34,410 bases of DNA from a virus (Duplodnaviria; Heunggongvirae; Uroviricota; Caudoviricetes): the IMG/VR virus record IMGVR_UViG_2579778652_000012, positions 1 to 34,410 of that record; one strand, written 5' to 3'. The notes under the pieces were generated by a model. It was not told the DNA's origin, did not search any database, and saw nothing but the letters and a program-made list of their open reading frames with translations. This document shows positions 10,978 through 34,280 of this stretch, one piece after another (position 1 is the first letter of the stretch; each line of letters starts with the position of its first letter). The position numbers and the translations under genes were made by a program.

Positions 10978-10994
10978 AATGCTCTAATAAATTT
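10978..10994 (+). promoter_or_regulatory. C1-repressor operator-like 17-mer upstream of c4-icd-ant
   Basis: AATGCTCTAATAAATTT, one mismatch to the P1 C1 operator consensus ATTGCTCTAATAAATTT (recalled); a weaker second copy follows at about 11008-11024. Confidence 0.5.
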
Positions 10995-11180
10995 GTATTT
11001 TTAAGTCGCGAATGCTATCTTTTCGCATCATATTGACCTTTTAATCGTTCAGGCTTATAGTTCCGCCGTCGTAGCAAATTCTGCGACCGGGTTTAGCAGC
11101 CTGAATACTTACGCGGACAACCGCAGATTTCCGATATTGCGGTATTTTTGTGTCCGTAAACCACGTTACGCCCGAATTAT

Positions 11181-11257
11181 GGTGGGGCGTGATGGGGAGG
11201 CTTCGGCCTGCTGGTTTCGTAAGTGCCAGTCTGCTAACCCCGTCACGTCCTGCCACC
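11181..11257 (+). ncRNA. c4: c4-like antisense repressor RNA (immunity I)
   Basis: 77-nt segment closed by GGTGG...CCACC with an internal UUCG-loop hairpin. It carries TCGTAAG (11218-11224) and CTGCTAA (11231-11237), complementary in antiparallel order to TTAGCAG/CTTACG copies both upstream (11092-11098, 11108-11113) and downstream at the icd RBS (11261-11267, 11289-11295). Confidence 0.5.
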
Positions 11258-11306
11258 TGTTTAGCAGCGGGTCGCAGGTTGTTTATCAACTTACGAGGCC
11301 GTAACT

Positions 11307-12734: not shown

Positions 12735-13535
12735 ATGCAACAAACATTCAATGCGGATATGAATATATCAAACCTTCATCAAAATGTCGATCCTTCAACC
12801 ACTCTGCCCGTTATTTGTGGTGTTGAAATTACGACCGACCGCGCTGGCCGTTACAACCTTAATGCTCTACACAGAGCGAGCGGACTCGGTGCCCATAAAG
12901 CGCCAGCTCAATGGCTAAGAACGCTGTCAGCAAAACAGCTCATCGAAGAGCTTGAAAAAGAAACTATGCAGAATTGCATAGTTTCGTTCGAAGGCCGTGG
13001 CGGCGGCACTTTTGCCCATGAATTGCTCGCTGTGGAGTACGCAGGCTGGATTTCTCCCGCGTTTCGGCTGAAGGTAAACCAGACATTTATCGACTATCGA
13101 GCCGGAAGATTACAACCTGCTATTCCGCAGAGTCTCCCTGAAGCTCTCCGTTTGGCTGCCGACCTGGCAGAGCAAAAGCAACGGCTGGAGCAAAAAATGC
13201 TTATGGATGCACCTAAAGTCGAATTCGCCGAACGCGTTGCTACCGCCAGCGGGGTTCTAATCGGCAACTATGCCAAAGTGCTCGGCCTGGGCCAAAACTA
13301 TCTCTTCACCTGGTTGCGTGATAACGGAATTCTGATCGCAACCGGTGAACGCAGGAACGTCCCCAAACAAGAATACATATCCCGTGGGTATTTCACCCTT
13401 AAAGAAACCGTGATCGATACAAGCAATGGAAGCAGGATTTCTTTCACGACTCGTATAACCGGCAAAGGTCAGCAGTGGCTGATGAAGCGATTGCTTGATG
13501 CTGGTGTGCTGGTACCTGTCGCGGCAACGCGCTAA
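12735..13535 (+). CDS. kilA: KilA (KilA-N domain plus ANT-like C-terminal domain)
   Basis: 266-aa ORF; N-terminal KilA-N-like region (...RYNLNALHRASGLGAHKAPAQWLR...GTFAHELLAVEYAGWISPAFRLKV); C-terminus paralogous to Ant. Confidence 0.65.
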   Translation: MQQTFNADMNISNLHQNVDPSTTLPVICGVEITTDRAGRYNLNALHRASGLGAHKAPAQWLRTLSAKQLIEELEKETMQNCIVSFEGRGGGTFAHELLAVEYAGWISPAFRLKVNQTFIDYRAGRLQPAIPQSLPEALRLAADLAEQKQRLEQKMLMDAPKVEFAERVATASGVLIGNYAKVLGLGQNYLFTWLRDNGILIATGERRNVPKQEYISRGYFTLKETVIDTSNGSRISFTTRITGKGQQWLMKRLLDAGVLVPVAATR

Positions 13536-13564
13536 CAGACGTAGTAAGAACCACCAGCATTGTA

Positions 13565-14410
13565 ATGCTGGCTAAAGTCACTTTCCTGAGCTGTATAACG
13601 ATGAGCGATTTTACTTTTTCTGGCTATGAATTGGCCTGCTTTGTAACACACTCCGGTCTATCCCGTAGCGCCGGGCATATCCTGTCGCAATGTGCAAATC
13701 TTGCGGCAACAACCAGTGAATACTTCATTCACAAGCCTCACCGCATGATCGCGGCAGAAACTGGTTATAGCCAATCAACCGTCGTTCGTGCATTCCGTGA
13801 AGCTGTAAACAAAGGAATCCTGACGGTAGAGATTGTTATCGGCGATCACCGTGAACGTCGCGCTAACCTGTACCGGTTTACACCATCCTTTTTGGCCTTC
13901 GCACAACAAGCCAAAAATGCGCTGATTGAAAGCAAATTAAAGATCTCTTCAGCGGCAACCAAAGTTAAAGCGGTTCTCGCTAAGACATTGGCTTTATTTA
14001 ATTTTTTATCCACACCCCCATGTCAAAATGATACCCCCTCCCCCTGTCAGGATGACGTGGCAATAAAGAATAAGAAGTCACAAGTTAAAAAAACAAAAAG
14101 ATCAGTTTCCGGCGGTGCCGGAACGAGCAGACTCAAAAAATTGACTTCATGGATCGCTGAGGCAAAAGCAAAGGCTGACAATCTGCGGTTATCCAAAAAA
14201 CGCGCTCAAAAACATGAGTTCAAGCAGAAAGTAGAGGCGGCAGCGCGGAAATATACTTACCTGAAGAACAAGCGTTCTCCTGATATTGGCGGGATATCAA
14301 ACTTCGATAATCTGCCGCATTGCATGACGGTAAACGAAGCTCTTAATGCGGTTTTAGCCAAAAATAAAGATAACGAACAATGGGGTATACCGGCAGGATT
14401 CAGAGGGTAA
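13565..14410 (+). CDS. repL: lytic replication protein RepL-like
   Basis: 281-aa ORF directly after kilA, as in P1. The start codon lies within a hairpin (ccagcat-tgta-atgctgg); an alternative ATG at 13601 is possible. Confidence 0.5.
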   Translation: MLAKVTFLSCITMSDFTFSGYELACFVTHSGLSRSAGHILSQCANLAATTSEYFIHKPHRMIAAETGYSQSTVVRAFREAVNKGILTVEIVIGDHRERRANLYRFTPSFLAFAQQAKNALIESKLKISSAATKVKAVLAKTLALFNFLSTPPCQNDTPSPCQDDVAIKNKKSQVKKTKRSVSGGAGTSRLKKLTSWIAEAKAKADNLRLSKKRAQKHEFKQKVEAAARKYTYLKNKRSPDIGGISNFDNLPHCMTVNEALNAVLAKNKDNEQWGIPAGFRG

Positions 14411-14578
14411 TGAATTGCTCTAATTATAACCATGCATACTTTCAACACCTCTAGTTTGCCATGAGGCAAACTCATAGGTGTCCTGGTAAGAGGACACTGT
14501 TGCCAAAACTGGACGCCCCATTATTGCAATTAATAAACAACTAACGGACAATTCTACCTAACAATAAGTGGAGTTAAC

Positions 14579-15283
14579 ATGTTGAACCGAAGAACATTTA
14601 ATGTATTCTGCGATGAATCCTGTCACCTACTAAATGATCATAATAAAGTCATGGTATTGGGTGCGCTTTGGTGTCCTGGCACTATCACAAAAAAAATTGC
14701 TAGAGACATCAAGGAATTAAAATTAAAACACAATCTAAAACCTGATTTCGAAATCAAGTGGACTAAAGTATCTGCGTCCAAAGTTGAATTTTACTTAGAT
14801 GTCGTAGATTACTTCTTCAGCAACCCAGCATTGCGCTTTAGAGGTGTTGTTGTTCCTGATAAAGAGCAACTGGACCATGCTCGATTCCATCAAGATCATA
14901 ATACTTTCTATTATAAGATGTTTTTTTATGTCTTAAAAAACATAATAGAAAGTAACAACACATACAATATCTACCTAGATATAAAAGATACTTTAGGTAT
15001 TGAAAAAATTGAGAAATTAAGAGGGGTTCTTCACAATGATCGCTATGATTACAATCATGAGTCGATAAACAGAATTCAACATATACGATCTCATGAAGTG
15101 CAACAATTGCAGCTAACGGATCTTTTCATTGGTGCATTAGGCTACGTTCATCGAGGAATGAATAGCAACGCGGGAAAAATCCAAGTCATAAACAGGATAA
15201 AATCACATACAAACAGGGAGTTACTAAAAAGCACTCTTCCAACAGAAAGTAAATTTAATATTTTCGTGTGGGAGGCTCGCTGA
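14579..15283 (+). CDS. DUF3800-like protein (FCDES motif), AT-rich accessory gene
   Basis: 234-aa ORF; N-terminal TFNVFCDESCHLL resembles the DUF3800 D-E-S signature (recalled); visibly AT-rich relative to flanking genes; this is the position P1 assigns to rlfA. Confidence 0.45.
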   Translation: MLNRRTFNVFCDESCHLLNDHNKVMVLGALWCPGTITKKIARDIKELKLKHNLKPDFEIKWTKVSASKVEFYLDVVDYFFSNPALRFRGVVVPDKEQLDHARFHQDHNTFYYKMFFYVLKNIIESNNTYNIYLDIKDTLGIEKIEKLRGVLHNDRYDYNHESINRIQHIRSHEVQQLQLTDLFIGALGYVHRGMNSNAGKIQVINRIKSHTNRELLKSTLPTESKFNIFVWEAR

Positions 15284-15747
15284 TGCTTCAAATGCCAGAT
15301 TTATTGTACTTCAATGGAAGTTGGCAAGAGTATATAGACGATGTATATGATATTGTCAGAGAAGACATTTTAATCTCTAATATAACGTTTAAGGGTCTCC
15401 CTGTTCGATTACGTTATTCACCGGAATATGATGGGAAAGAGTTCGGATTTTGGCATTTAGTATCAGAGGGAAAAAAAGAAGAAGAACGTATACCCGATCT
15501 TGAACGGTGCAAGCGAATTCGCTGGATCGCGCATATGATAAGGAATTATAACCATTGCGATATATCATGTTGGTCTGAAAGACGAGGACCAACTGAAGAG
15601 TGGGTAATCTGGAATGAGTGTGAAAACTACGTTGTTGTGCTATCCGCACGTAGAGACTATTGGCTTCTCAAAACAGCCTATGTTGTAACCTATGACAGTA
15701 AAATCAGAACACTCAAACAAAGCAGAAAAAGAGCACTTGGGACATAA
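15283..15747 (+). CDS. hypothetical protein translationally coupled to the DUF3800-like gene
   Basis: ATG overlaps the upstream TGA (TGATG), so the likely start is MLQMPDLLYF at 15283 rather than the track start at 15268; AT-rich; no recognised domain. Confidence 0.45.
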   Translation: MLQMPDLLYFNGSWQEYIDDVYDIVREDILISNITFKGLPVRLRYSPEYDGKEFGFWHLVSEGKKEEERIPDLERCKRIRWIAHMIRNYNHCDISCWSERRGPTEEWVIWNECENYVVVLSARRDYWLLKTAYVVTYDSKIRTLKQSRKRALGT

Positions 15748-15913
15748 AAAAGCTGAACCCGACACATATTGCTATGTATCGGGTTCGATCGCTCTTTCTA
15801 CACATGGTAGATGAGTAAGTCAAATCTAACCGATCTACTTTAGCTTTTCAATAGCTAGCTATAACTTTCCGCATATATTCTTCTGATAATTCCTGGAGAG
15901 CGGTTGGGTTTTC

Positions 15914-16210
15914 TCATGCTTTTCTGCGCAGAGAAGCACACTTATTCAGCAATAATAAATGCAATTCTTTGTTATCACTAAGTATTTCTACACACCAATA
16001 TCGTAACGTGTTCACTTCAAGTGTAGCCAGCACCTTATGTCGAAAAGCCCCCTCCCCTACACATAACGATGGCTGACATTCTGCTAAGGCACATAACCAT
16101 GTATTGGCATCATAGAGAACCCAATAATGCTCATCTGAAATAGTTATGCATCCAATTATTTCGAATCTTCTTTCTATCGTCTCAGGAGAGTATGAAAAAT
16201 CAATTTCCAT
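15914..16210 (-). CDS. hypothetical small protein
   Basis: 98-aa ORF convergent with the DUF3800 cassette; Cys-rich. Confidence 0.4.
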   Translation of the reverse strand: MEIDFSYSPETIERRFEIIGCITISDEHYWVLYDANTWLCALAECQPSLCVGEGAFRHKVLATLEVNTLRYWCVEILSDNKELHLLLLNKCASLRRKA

Positions 16211-16250
16211 AACATGCTCAAAATCTATCTATACCGGCATAATTTAAGCA

Positions 16251-16272
16251 CAAAAAAGCTCCCGAAGGAGCT
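16251..16272 (-). terminator. rho-independent terminator after the structural gene block
   Basis: Hairpin agctcc-cgaa-ggagct followed on the minus strand by a six-T run; 22 nt past the stop at 16294. Confidence 0.55.
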
Positions 16273-16293
16273 TTAAAATACAAGGGATGACTC

Positions 16294-16803
16294 TTAATCC
16301 CACTCAATCCAGTTGTAAACGATACGAAGTGACGGGCGCACAGCGGCAGTCACATCTTCAGTACTAAAGTCGATTGCATCACTGTAGATTTTGCAGTCCA
16401 ACATTTCAATTGTTGTAGCAGCTTTTGTCACAGCGTTAACCCCGGAAGATTTGGATTCAGGGGTCGCAGCCATCGTGATATCAACATAGTCCTTCGCCGC
16501 AATGCGATCTTTAATGAACTGAAGAATATCGCCTTCGATAGTCTCCACGCACTGGACCTGGATTTCCCCGGAGTTACGGATTGGACCGTGCTGGTTGAAC
16601 TTCACACCATTCGGACCATAGTCCTCCACATCCTCACGGGTCATTTCAGGGATCTGCGACGTGCGGACCAGTACGCTGATATCTTCATGGCCTGCAAAAG
16701 TGAGCTGGAATTCAGAAGATACGAGTCGTTCGCCTTTGGCCGCGTTGGCAGTATAGCGGCCCTTAATAAATTTACGGTTTCCCTTAGTGTTATTGTGCCC
16801 CAT
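16294..16803 (-). CDS. phage structural protein (tail tube or baseplate class, uncertain)
   Basis: 169-aa ORF, last gene of the minus-strand sheath/head block; assigned by size and position only. Confidence 0.4.
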   Translation of the reverse strand: MGHNNTKGNRKFIKGRYTANAAKGERLVSSEFQLTFAGHEDISVLVRTSQIPEMTREDVEDYGPNGVKFNQHGPIRNSGEIQVQCVETIEGDILQFIKDRIAAKDYVDITMAATPESKSSGVNAVTKAATTIEMLDCKIYSDAIDFSTEDVTAAVRPSLRIVYNWIEWD

Positions 16804-33000: not shown

Positions 33001-33452
33001 TGACGCGTTACAACCAGGCCGGTGAGTTCAATGTCGGTTATGGGAAGTATAAAACTCCGTATTTCCCATTACAGGAGATGGAAGCCTTCCTCGGTGCGGA
33101 AGGGCGGTCTGAGTTTGTATGCGGTGATTTTGCAGCGGTGATTGAAGCTGCCGGAGAAGGAGATGTCATCTTTTGCGATCCGCCGTATGAACCGCTTCCA
33201 AATACAGAGGGATTCACGAACTATTCCGGTCATGACTTTAAGTTTGAAGAGCAAAAACGCCTGGTGTCTCTGTTGACGGATGCTCATCGTCGAGGTGCAA
33301 AAGTTCTCATTACTAACAGTGGCGCGCCAAACATCAGAGAGCTTTATCATGACAGTGGCTTCAGAGTGGAACCTCTTTTTGCCAGACGTTCTGTGTCTTG
33401 TAAGGGAGACACTCGAGGTGTTGCTCATGACGTTATAGCAATATTGCACTAA
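30006..33452 (+). CDS. dmt: bifunctional DNA methyltransferase Dmt: N-terminal C5-cytosine MTase (intein-interrupted) fused to C-terminal Dam-type N6-adenine MTase
   Basis: GTG start overlapping the hrdC stop, with GGAGAGG 7 nt upstream. C5-MTase motifs: [12 protein letters not shown] (PCQ, split by the intein), [23 protein letters not shown]. Dam-type domain from about nt 32613: [27 protein letters not shown] and catalytic DPPY, collinear with E. coli Dam. Confidence 0.85.
30237..31259 (+). mobile_element. intein (341 codons) with LAGLIDADG-type homing endonuclease domain, inserted in the PCQ motif of the Dmt C5-MTase domain
   Basis: Starts with Cys (CFTAGHMVL, block A-like); TTNDHPFL (block B T-x-x-H); [10 protein letters not shown] and GYLDTDGT (two LAGLIDADG-type motifs); ends ...[10 protein letters not shown] followed by +1 Cys (CQAFSIAG). 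In-frame removal restores [12 protein letters not shown]. Confidence 0.75.
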
Positions 33453-33466
33453 TAAATTTATTAGTG
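33443..33466. promoter_or_regulatory. bipartite (palindromic) C1 operator-like element overlapping the dmt stop codon
   Basis: ATTGCACTAATAAATTT (33443-33459, one mismatch to consensus) overlaps the perfect 20-bp palindrome CACTAATAAATTTATTAGTG (33447-33466), i.e. two inverted overlapping half-operators. Confidence 0.5.
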
Positions 33467-33636
33467 TAATATCGACTCAATGAATCGTGATTTATAGAGC
33501 GATTTAGCTGTTAGCCGCGACAGGCGCGGCGGCAAGTATGGCGGGGTAGTGACTCCTTCCCCATCATGACGCCGAGTTGCCAGGTTGACCATACGCCTAA
33601 GTGGCAACACCGAAGTGCGTTACGAGCTTCCAGTTT

Positions 33637-34126: not shown

Positions 34127-34202
34127 GATGGTGTAGCTCAGCGGTTAGAGCGGTTGACTGTTAATCAACGGGTCGATGGTTCAAATCCATCCACCATCGC
34201 CA
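34127..34202 (+). tRNA. tRNA-Asn (anticodon GTT)
   Basis: Manual cloverleaf: acceptor GATGGTG/CACCATC, D-arm GCTC-AGCGGTTAG-AGC, anticodon arm GTTGA-CTGTTAA-TCAAC (GTT), T-arm GATGG-TTCAAAT-CCATC, discriminator G, encoded CCA. Confidence 0.85.
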
Positions 34203-34204
34203 AT

Positions 34205-34280
34205 GCCGGTTTAGCTCAGTTGGTAGAGCGCCTGCCTTGTAAGCAGGATGTCAGCGGTTCGAGTCCGTTAATCGGCACCA
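34205..34280 (+). tRNA. tRNA-Thr (anticodon TGT)
   Basis: Manual cloverleaf: acceptor GCCGGTT/AATCGGC (one G-U), D-arm GCTC-AGTTGGTAG-AGC, anticodon arm CCTGC-CTTGTAA-GCAGG (TGT), T-arm AGCGG-TTCGAGT-CCGTT, encoded CCA; 2 nt after tRNA-Asn. Confidence 0.85.

What the first reader, a model, noticed from the sequence alone, without database searches (positions are those of the whole stretch)
14413..15747. AT-rich two-gene cassette (DUF3800-like plus coupled partner) downstream of repL
The two translationally coupled genes (TGATG overlap) are visibly AT-richer than the flanking kilA-repL and structural genes, suggesting horizontal acquisition. The first begins with the DUF3800-like FCDES signature; the second (about 154 aa, Cys/His-containing) has no domain I recognise. 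A truncated operator-like motif, ATTGCTCTAATTATAAC at 14413-14429, lies upstream. The cassette occupies the position of the functionally uncharacterised rlfA/rlfB pair of P1 and may be a two-component exclusion, defense or toxin-like module.
Basis: partly seen in the sequence, partly recalled or inferred. Interest (0 to 1): 0.55.

Follow-up and report, generated by a model that had tools for sequence, protein, structure and literature searches.

The report
P1 rlfA-rlfB candidate defence cassette
This AT-rich two-gene cassette is the long-known but uncharacterised rlfA/rlfB pair of phage P1; comparison with relatives suggests it is a swappable, horizontally mobile nuclease module that elsewhere usually sits inside restriction-modification operons, so it is a plausible but untested anti-phage defence system rather than a replication function.

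Summary
Two overlapping genes lie at 14579-15283 and 15283-15747. The segment is 36.9% GC against 45.9% for the window. The first protein is DUF3800.

The cassette is rlfA/rlfB of P1 (98.7% identical) and rapA/rapB of P7 (99.1%). The low-GC island runs from 14425 to 16251 and also contains pmgF. It fills a variable slot between repL and the bplB terminator. Only 98 of 680 matching plasmids carry it; others hold hokD, Ail/Lom or unknown genes.

The pair matches PADLOC's untested candidate PDC-M04. It is strictly conserved as a pair across phyla. In 15 of 43 non-P1 loci it sits beside type I RM genes, in the three gene-called cases between hsdS and hsdR. None of these loci has repL.

Best reading (about 0.6): a lysogen-carried defence or abortive-infection nuclease module. 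The genes are already known; the function is unproven.

The parts
14414..14430 (+). C1 operator-like site ATTGCTCTAATTATAAC (P1 Orlf, former Op55). The left junction of the variable slot falls inside it, after base 14424.
   Evidence: P1 and P7 annotation. The first 11 nt equal the consensus and the 3' part does not. Cargo variants are identical up to ATTGCTCTAAT and then diverge.
14453..14498 (+). Two hairpins in the leader (14453-14472 and 14477-14498), upstream of the module's own promoter. Their function is unknown.
   Evidence: Read from the sequence. The RNA fold of 14411-14600 has z -3.6. There is no U-tract and no Rfam match. P7 shows one two-sided change in hairpin 2.
14524..14552 (+). 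Sigma-70-like promoter PrlfA: TTGCAA, 17 nt, GACAAT.
   Evidence: Predicted in the P1 annotation. Both hexamer blocks are conserved upstream of chromosomal rlfA homologues in Citrobacter, Scandinavium, Biostraticola, Cronobacter and Vibrio, whose further-upstream DNA is unrelated.
14579..15283 (+). rlfA (rapA in P7): 234-aa DUF3800 protein, predicted RNase HII/H2-like nuclease.
15283..15747 (+). rlfB (rapB in P7): 154-aa partner protein of a family with no Pfam model.
15755..15786 (.). 14-bp-stem hairpin between the convergent rlfB and pmgF genes. The T-run lies on the minus strand and the A-run on the plus strand, so it probably terminates in both directions.
15914..16210 (-). pmgF: 98-aa ORFan inside the same swapped low-GC segment. 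It is not part of the conserved rlfAB module elsewhere.
   Evidence: 38.4% GC. Lost together with rlfAB in the other cargo variants. No homologue in 38 non-P1 rlfAB loci. Only two protein clusters, both from P1-like elements.
16252..16274 (-). bplB terminator hairpin AAAAAAGCTCCCGAAGGAGCTTT. This is the right junction of the variable slot.

Best explanation
rlfA-rlfB is a self-contained, horizontally mobile two-gene nuclease module. It belongs to PADLOC's candidate family PDC-M04. P1-like phage-plasmids carry it as optional cargo in a variable slot between repL and the tail/baseplate operon.

Proposed working (inferred, not shown):
- The pair is transcribed from its own sigma-70 promoter.
- The two proteins are made in fixed proportion through the TGATG overlap and act as a complex.
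- RlfA, an RNase HII/H2-like metal-dependent nuclease with an intact set of acidic residues, is the catalytic effector. Its likely substrates are the RNA strand of RNA:DNA hybrids (primers, R-loops) or structured RNA.
- RlfB, which evolves faster, is the specificity or sensing subunit, and may be a His/Arg ribonuclease in its own right.
- When another phage infects, the module cuts nucleic acid and stops that phage or the cell.
- In most non-enterobacterial relatives the pair sits between hsdS and hsdR of type I RM operons. That is the topology of the PrrC anticodon nuclease, which suggests a back-up role when restriction is disabled.
For: Shown here:
- Both proteins hit PDC-M04A and PDC-M04B at 1e-95 and 2e-52.
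- RlfA sits directly upstream of RlfB on the same strand in 37 of 38 non-P1 loci from many phyla. The exception is cut off by a contig end.
- Gene overlaps of 1 or 4 nt occur in all 8 gene-called loci.
- RlfB has H58 invariant and R69, R75 and R78 kept in at least 90% of 149 cluster representatives.
- RlfB diverges faster than RlfA: 31-47% against 45-53% identity across phyla, and 12 PADLOC models against 2.
- In loci from Bacteroidota (Algoriphagus), Nitrospirota and Methylomonas the order is hsdM-hsdS-RlfA-RlfB-hsdR, with overlapping genes.
- 15 of 43 non-P1 loci have hsdM or hsdR in their flanks. The commonest families among 118 neighbouring genes are HsdR, HsdM, HsdS and SymE.
- One locus fuses the RlfA domain to an Eco57I-type methylase, next to an MZB/SNF2 helicase and two Cas13a genes.
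- Other loci lie in integrase islands or at tRNA-Sec, tmRNA or smpB sites.
- In P1-like plasmids the slot is swappable: 98 of 680 records hold rlfAB, and others hold hokD or Ail/Lom.
- The segment is low in GC.
- The module's own promoter is conserved with chromosomal homologues.

From papers: DUF3800 is an RNase H-fold nuclease associated with retron type VII and with Cas12a2, Cas12a3 and type VI-F loci (PMC7736814, PMC10910872, PMC12669027).
Against: - No experiment exists. PDC systems are 145 explicitly untested candidates found by guilt-by-embedding.
- In P1 the pair is co-oriented with kilA-repL, sits behind a C1 operator, and is grouped with early lytic replication genes in P1vir RNA-seq. 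It may therefore be expressed mainly in lytic growth rather than in the lysogen.
- No trigger is known.
- The RlfA active site is inferred from sequence and secondary structure, not from a superposition.
- Embedding in RM operons could also reflect an accessory role in restriction-modification.
Confidence: 0.6

Rival explanations
1. Toxin-antitoxin-like addiction module that stabilises the plasmid prophage. One partner, most likely RlfB, is toxic and the other neutralises it, so cells that lose the plasmid are killed.
Against: RlfA is a 234-aa enzyme with invariant putative catalytic residues, not a small labile antitoxin. Most relatives are chromosomal and lie inside RM operons, where post-segregational killing makes little sense. 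The fold evidence for RlfB is weak. This rival overlaps with abortive-infection defence and does not exclude it.
Confidence: 0.15
2. Accessory of P1 lytic replication, as the names 'replication-linked function' and 'replication-associated protein' imply. An RNase H-like enzyme would process the transcript or R-loop at oriL into a primer.
For: The pair lies immediately downstream of repL/oriL on the same strand, behind a C1 operator. RlfA has an RNase H2-like fold. It is induced together with repL in P1vir infection.
Against: None of 44 non-P1 rlfAB loci encodes RepL, KilA or BplB. About 85% of plasmids with the same repL lack rlfAB. Among 50,697 phage records, only 8 P1-like records and one Bifidobacterium phage have RlfB. 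The P1 lytic-replicon fragment used in PAC vectors ends 4 nt before the rlfA ATG (annotation); that these vectors amplify without rlfAB is my own knowledge. CRISPRi knockdown gave efficiencies of plating of 1.3 and 0.88, but the same screen missed repL, so this point is weak.
Confidence: 0.08
3. Counter-defence or selfish element. Either a phage nuclease destroys host immune nucleic acids such as retron msDNA or guide RNAs, or the cassette is a self-inserting mobile nuclease with no benefit to its carrier.
For: DUF3800 co-occurs with RNA-based immune systems. The cassette has sharp insertion junctions and a spotty distribution.
Against: The pair is mostly chromosomal and is co-transcribed inside RM operons. 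It is very rare in phages. No terminal inverted repeats or convincing target duplications flank the cassette. The best structural matches are RNase HII/HIII, not transposases.
Confidence: 0.05

Closest known systems
P1 rlfA/rlfB and P7 rapA/rapB
   Same: 98.7% and 99.1% nucleotide identity over 14413-15900. Same neighbours: repL, Orlf/Op55, pmgF and bplB.
   Different: Nothing of substance; this is the same locus. The published label, 'possibly associated with lytic replication', is positional only.
PADLOC candidate system PDC-M04 (Payne et al. 2024, bioRxiv 10.1101/2024.01.29.577857)
   Same: Both proteins match its A and B models over nearly their full length, and the genes are adjacent on the same strand. 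Relatives are embedded in type I RM and DISARM-like loci, which is how PDC systems were found.
   Different: PDC systems are untested, and no mechanism has been proposed for them. The P1 copy stands alone with its own promoter and is not embedded.
PrrC and RloC anticodon nucleases embedded in type I RM operons
   Same: Relatives share the topology hsdM-hsdS-[module]-hsdR. That PrrC has this topology is my own knowledge. The logic of a latent nuclease guarding a restriction system is plausible here too.
   Different: Different proteins. PrrC is a single ABC-ATPase-nuclease polypeptide. Here there is an RNase H2-like enzyme plus a 154-aa partner with no ATPase. The window holds no type I RM genes next to the pair.
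DUF3800 proteins of retron type VII and the TPR-DUF3800 accessory proteins of Cas12a2, Cas12a3 and type VI-F CRISPR loci
   Same: Same Pfam family and RNase H2-like fold, in an immune context.
   Different: The window has no reverse transcriptase, non-coding RNA, TPR domain or cas gene beside the pair. The RlfB partner is specific to this clade. Retron type VII DUF3800 lacks the conserved Q of the QxxD motif, whereas RlfA keeps Q178-x-x-D181.
RNase HII / RNase H2A / RNase HIII
   Different: No sequence-level relationship. Substrate specificity is unknown. The 2'-OH-sensing motif of RNase HII was not identified.
RelE/ParE, YoeB, YafQ, HigB, colicin D and CdiA-CT ribonuclease toxins

Membership tests
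Pfam DUF3800 (PF12686) | HMM score above the gathering cut-off | tested here: met
   54.2 bits against a cut-off of 21, E 3.5e-14, covering profile positions 1-148 of 149.
Pfam DUF3800 (PF12686) | N-terminal DE motif and C-terminal QxxD motif | tested here: met
   D12-E13 and Q178-x-x-D181 are invariant in alignment A2 and in 39-40 of 40 diverse homologues. The motif definition comes from PMC7736814.
PADLOC PDC-M04 | Adjacent genes on the same strand matching both the A and the B models | tested here: met
   PDC-M04A 1e-95 (residues 5-233) and PDC-M04B 2.2e-52 (residues 3-150). The genes overlap by 1 nt.
PADLOC PDC-M04 | Anti-phage activity | not testable with these tools
   PDC systems are described as 145 untested candidates. 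No paper in the library names PDC-M04.
RNase H2/HII-like nucleases | RNase H fold with HII-type topology | tested here: met
RNase H2/HII-like nucleases | Four catalytic carboxylates placed in the active site | tested here: inconclusive
   D12 and E13 lie near the C-terminal end of strand 1, D134 follows strand 127-133, and D181 lies in helix 175-192. All are invariant. No superposition on a solved active site could be made.
RelE / colicin D-type RNase toxins (for RlfB) | Significant structural or profile similarity | tested here: inconclusive
Type II toxin-antitoxin system | A small labile antitoxin encoded upstream of, and neutralising, a small toxin | tested here: not met
   The upstream gene encodes a 234-aa enzyme-like protein with invariant putative catalytic residues. 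Neutralisation itself cannot be tested here.
PrrC/RloC RM-embedded anticodon nucleases | ABC-ATPase domain plus C-terminal anticodon nuclease domain in one protein | tested here: not met
   No ATPase or PrrC/RloC model hit in Pfam or PADLOC.
PrrC/RloC RM-embedded anticodon nucleases | Location between hsdS and hsdR of a type I RM operon | tested here: not met
   Not in this window, where the flanks are repL and pmgF/bplB. It is met in relatives L050-L052, and 15 of 43 non-P1 loci have hsdM or hsdR nearby.
P1 lytic replicon (RepL/oriL) components | Co-occurrence with repL and requirement for oriL replication | tested here: not met
   0 of 44 non-P1 loci have repL. 582 of the 680 plasmid records that match the repL-to-bplB query lack rlfAB, and many of them keep repL. 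The PAC-vector replicon fragment excludes rlfA. The requirement itself was not testable.
DUF3800-associated RNA motifs (DUF3800-I to XI, drum, skipping-rope) | Match to one of the Rfam models next to the gene | tested here: not met
   No such match in window 13500-16500 at E up to 10, nor in the window and 9 related loci at gathering score.
Retron type VII | A reverse transcriptase and msr/msd RNA adjacent to the DUF3800 gene | tested here: not met
   No reverse transcriptase gene is annotated beside rlfAB in the near-identical P1 and P7 records, and there is no retron RNA match.

The most novel reading that the evidence does not exclude
RlfAB is the founding, experimentally tractable member of a new class of immune nuclease. 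An RNase H2-like enzyme pairs with a previously unnamed His/Arg protein family (at least 1780 clusters). The pair normally guards type I restriction systems from within their operons, and P1 has captured it as lysogenic-conversion cargo. It would act by cutting RNA:DNA hybrids or RNA of an invading phage once it is triggered.
Probability: 0.3. Interest if true: 0.7.

Novelty: already known. Interest (0 to 1): 0.4.

Why it matters
rlfA and rlfB have carried a 'replication-linked' label in one of the best-studied phages for two decades, without evidence. RefSeq calls RlfB an 'oxidoreductase' or a 'replication protein', and nothing found here supports either name.

Linking them to an RM-embedded candidate defence family places an untested, phylum-spanning system in the most tractable setting available: E. 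coli and P1. It also identifies the repL-bplB interval as a cargo slot of P1-like phage-plasmids, which are clinically relevant carriers of resistance genes.

If the module is validated, it would add an RNase H2-type effector and a new partner family to bacterial immunity. It might also explain why DUF3800 recurs next to retrons, Cas12a2/a3 and Cas13.

Tried and rejected
- **Rfam.** An E-value search of 13500-16500 and a gathering-score search of the window plus 9 related loci found no DUF3800-associated or other relevant RNA family. The idea that the structured leader is a known DUF3800 RNA motif is dropped.
- **NCBIfam.** No match for either protein.
- **PDB sequence and profile searches.** No relatives for either protein.
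- **Foldseek against PDB for RlfB.** Nothing significant.
- **Pfam on 149 diverse RlfB representatives.** No consistent family. The longer members with N-terminal extensions showed no informative fusion.
- **pmgF as a third component.** Rejected. It has no homologue near any non-P1 pair, no Pfam or PADLOC hit, and is an ORFan of P1-like elements.
- **Transposon-like structure.** There are no terminal inverted repeats. The only flanking direct repeat, TATACCGGCA at 14386 and 16230, is at the length expected by chance.
- **Literature.** No paper names PDC-M04. The DUF3800 papers give no functional test. The phage-plasmid survey read here does not mention rlfAB. The Lobocka 2004 P1 genome paper is not held.
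- **Promoter scan.** The simple consensus scan did not call PrlfA. Support for that promoter comes from cross-genus conservation instead.

Full report
**1. What is in the sequence**

Two plus-strand ORFs lie downstream of repL: 14579-15283 (234 aa) and 15283-15747 (154 aa). The stop TGA and the start ATG share base 15283, giving TGATG. Each ORF has its own Shine-Dalgarno site, GGAG at 14570-14573 and GGGAGG at 15270-15275. The ORF listing also offers a GTG start at 15268, but every homologue begins at the MLxMP methionine.

The finding's interval is 36.9% GC. The window mean is 45.9%, with sd 4.0 for windows of equal length. Only 3.4% of such windows are as low, and all of them lie here or at 9108-10096. 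GC3 is 0.34 for both genes, against 0.44-0.53 for ant1, kilA, repL, bplB, pmgG and gene 21.

**2. Identity**

The interval 14413-15900 is 98.7% identical to phage P1 and 99.1% identical to P7. The two genes are rlfA/rlfB in P1 and rapA/rapB in P7, and the motif is the annotated C1 operator Orlf (former Op55). More than 100 P1-like plasmids carry the same DNA. So do 121 of 5426 complete E. coli genomes, almost always on plasmids, and one plasmid is 100% identical.

The published description, 'possibly associated with lytic replication', rests on position only. Other database labels for RlfB, 'replication protein' (PHROG 16230 and RefSeq) and 'oxidoreductase', have no support in Pfam or NCBIfam.

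**3. A swappable cargo slot**

A query spanning repL to bplB matches 680 plasmid records at 95-99% identity, but only 98 contain the middle part. The others keep repL up to window position 14424 and bplB from 16252 onward. Between those points they carry one of these alternatives:
- an 81-aa protein plus hokD;
- an 81-aa protein plus a 198-aa protein;
- an Ail/Lom outer-membrane protein plus the 198-aa protein.

IS421 or TnpB insertions occur in some records.

The left junction falls inside the operator. All variants share ATTGCTCTAAT and then diverge. The right junction is the bplB terminator hairpin. The variable segment, 14425-16251, coincides with the low-GC island. It contains rlfA, rlfB, a probably bidirectional terminator (15755-15786) and pmgF on the minus strand.

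An earlier paper on P1-like elements had already noted replacements of rlfA-rlfB-pmgF (PMC6906374). No terminal inverted repeats flank the segment.

**4. RlfA**

- Pfam DUF3800: 54 bits against a cut-off of 21.
- AlphaFold2 model built on a 28-sequence alignment: pLDDT 88, pTM 0.88.
- D12-E13 near the C-terminal end of strand 1, D134 and D137 after strand 127-133, and Q178 and D181 in the following helix are invariant.
- In 40 homologues from many phyla only one departs from this pattern.

This agrees with published structure-based statements that DUF3800 is an RNase H2-like nuclease (PMC7736814, PMC10910872, PMC12669027). I could not superimpose the active site, so catalytic competence is inferred.

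**5. RlfB**

RlfB has no Pfam, NCBIfam or PDB sequence relative, even when 149 diverse representatives are scanned one by one. The family is nevertheless large: 1780 representatives of 50%-identity clusters at E up to 1e-3. Across 149 representatives H58 is invariant. P5, F56, W57, R69, R75, R78, W81 and W97 are kept in at least 90%.

**6. The pair elsewhere**

*Pairing.* In 37 of 38 non-P1 loci an RlfA homologue lies directly upstream of RlfB on the same strand. These loci come from Gammaproteobacteria, Saccharibacteria, Planctomycetota, Verrucomicrobiota, Dehalococcoidia, Thermoanaerobaculia and other groups. The single exception is cut off by a contig end. Wherever genes were called, the two overlap by 1 or 4 nt. 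RlfA is 45-53% identical across phyla and RlfB 31-47%. pmgF never accompanies the pair. None of 44 such loci encodes RepL, KilA or BplB.

*RM context.* Three distant RlfA homologues chosen only for having long contigs, from Bacteroidota (Algoriphagus), Nitrospirota and Methylomonas, all show hsdM-hsdS-RlfA-RlfB-hsdR. One of these also has a reverse transcriptase upstream and a Piwi protein downstream. Overall 15 of 43 non-P1 loci have hsdM or hsdR in the flanks held here. The commonest families among 118 immediate neighbours are HsdR, HsdM, HsdS and SymE.

*A fusion.* One metagenomic locus fuses a full RlfA domain to the C-terminus of a 1556-aa Eco57I-type methylase (35% identity, E 3e-38). 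In that copy position 12 is N and position 134 is E. RlfB follows, and an MZB/SNF2 helicase and two Cas13a genes lie alongside.

*Enterobacterial copies.* These sit in islands at tRNA-Sec, next to a P4-like satellite, in an integrase/DUF927 element, or at smpB at the end of a prophage, often beside SymE and RhuM.

*Phages.* Among 50,697 phage records, only 8 P1-like records and one Bifidobacterium phage encode RlfB.

**7. Link to a catalogued candidate**

Both proteins match PADLOC's PDC-M04A and PDC-M04B nearly end to end (1e-95 and 2e-52). PDC systems are 145 candidates derived from genes embedded in BREX, DISARM and type I RM systems, and their authors state they are untested. No paper in the library names PDC-M04, or links it to P1.

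**8. Regulation in the P1 context**

A promoter predicted in the P1 record, TTGCAA-17-GACAAT at 14524-14552, is conserved in both hexamer blocks upstream of chromosomal homologues in five other genera, although the DNA further upstream is unrelated. The module therefore travels with its own promoter.

That promoter lies about 95 nt downstream of the Op55 site and is not overlapped by it. Op55 matches the operator consensus only in its first 11 bases, while four of the five other operator sites in the window have 1 mismatch and the fifth has 2.

I infer that the pair can be expressed in the lysogen independently of C1, and that read-through from kilA-repL adds expression after induction. The second point is consistent with rlfA/B being grouped with early replication genes in P1vir RNA-seq. 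Neither point is shown.

Two hairpins at 14453-14498 lie between the operator and the promoter. The fold z-score of the leader is -3.6. There is no U-tract and no Rfam match. They are unexplained.

**9. Best explanation and rivals**

*Best explanation (confidence about 0.6).* A mobile two-gene nuclease module with a defence or abortive-infection role, carried by P1-like elements as optional cargo. I commit to the following, all inferred:
- RlfA is the catalytic effector, acting on RNA:DNA hybrids or RNA.
- RlfB is the faster-evolving specificity or sensor subunit, possibly a His/Arg ribonuclease itself.
- The two act as a complex.
- In RM-embedded relatives the topology equals that of PrrC in the EcoprrI operon (my own knowledge), which suggests a back-up role when restriction is inhibited.

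*Rivals.*
- A toxin-antitoxin-like addiction module (0.15). It is supported by hokD as alternative cargo and by SymE neighbours. It is weakened by the enzyme-like upstream partner and by the chromosomal RM contexts.
- A lytic-replication accessory (0.08). It is contradicted by the absence of repL elsewhere, by the 85% of repL-bearing plasmids that lack the pair, and by the PAC-vector replicon fragment that stops 4 nt before rlfA. The CRISPRi non-essentiality result is weak, because the same screen missed repL.
- Counter-defence or a selfish element (0.05).

**10. Novelty and score**

The sequence feature is already known: P1 rlfA/rlfB, family PDC-M04. Three things were not found stated in the literature searched:
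- the explicit link between the classic P1 genes and an RM-embedded candidate defence family;
- the delineation of the repL-bplB cargo slot, with its junction inside Op55;
- the description of RlfB as a large unnamed His/Arg family.

Function remains unproven. Interest is 0.4: the object itself is ordinary, but it offers a clean and cheap experimental route to an untested, widespread system.

Noticed in passing
window 14453-14498: Two strong hairpins (AGTTTGCC-ATGA-GGCAAACT and GGTGTCC...GGACACT) lie between Op55 and the rlfA promoter. The fold z-score of the leader is -3.6, there is no U-tract and no Rfam hit. P7 shows one two-sided (compensatory) change in hairpin 2. They are absent from chromosomal rlfAB loci. 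They may form a 3' end or insulator of the kilA-repL transcript.
   Followed up: partly
window 15914-16210 (minus strand): pmgF is swapped together with rlfAB, is equally AT-rich (38.4% GC), and is an ORFan restricted to P1-like elements (two protein clusters). It never accompanies rlfAB elsewhere. Its 'morphogenetic' label looks positional only.
   Followed up: yes
L047 3321-8471: A 1556-aa Eco57I/N6-methylase carries a C-terminal RlfA domain in which D12 is N and D134 is E. RlfB follows, and an MZB/SNF2 helicase and two Cas13a genes lie alongside. This may be a variant with an inactivated nuclease domain in a DISARM-like setting.
   Followed up: partly
L050 3183-14617: A dense defence island on an integrative element: hsdM/S fusion, reverse transcriptase, RlfA, RlfB, hsdR, an unknown gene, then a Piwi protein.
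   Followed up: no
window 14414-14424 and loci L006-L008: The recombination junction of the cargo slot lies inside the C1 operator. Three of the four cargo variants compared (rlfAB, hokD and the three-hypothetical-gene variant) keep only the consensus half, ATTGCTCTAAT. The Ail/Lom variant (L008) has diverged in this stretch and was not resolved. Whether C1 still binds any of these sites is unknown.
   Followed up: partly
window 14386-14400 and 16230-16244: A direct repeat, TATACCGGCAGGATT and TATACCGGCATAATT, brackets the variable segment. Its length is what chance would give in 2 kb, so it is probably meaningless.
   Followed up: partly
window 15283-15747 (database labels): RefSeq and PHROG name RlfB 'oxidoreductase' or 'replication protein'. 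No profile library supports either name.
   Followed up: yes
window 10978-11260, 12649, 28739, 33443-33470, 34127-34277: Other known P1 landmarks are present: C4 antisense RNA and its a1b1 targets, four further C1 operator positions (one of them bivalent), and two tRNA genes. Other low-GC islands lie at 1-750, 9108-11000 (by position upstream of c4, probably the sim region) and 21500-22250.
   Followed up: no
PMC10695390: The P1 CRISPRi screen that scores rlfA and rlfB as non-essential also failed to detect repL, a known essential gene in the same region. Its negative calls there should be read with caution.
   Followed up: no
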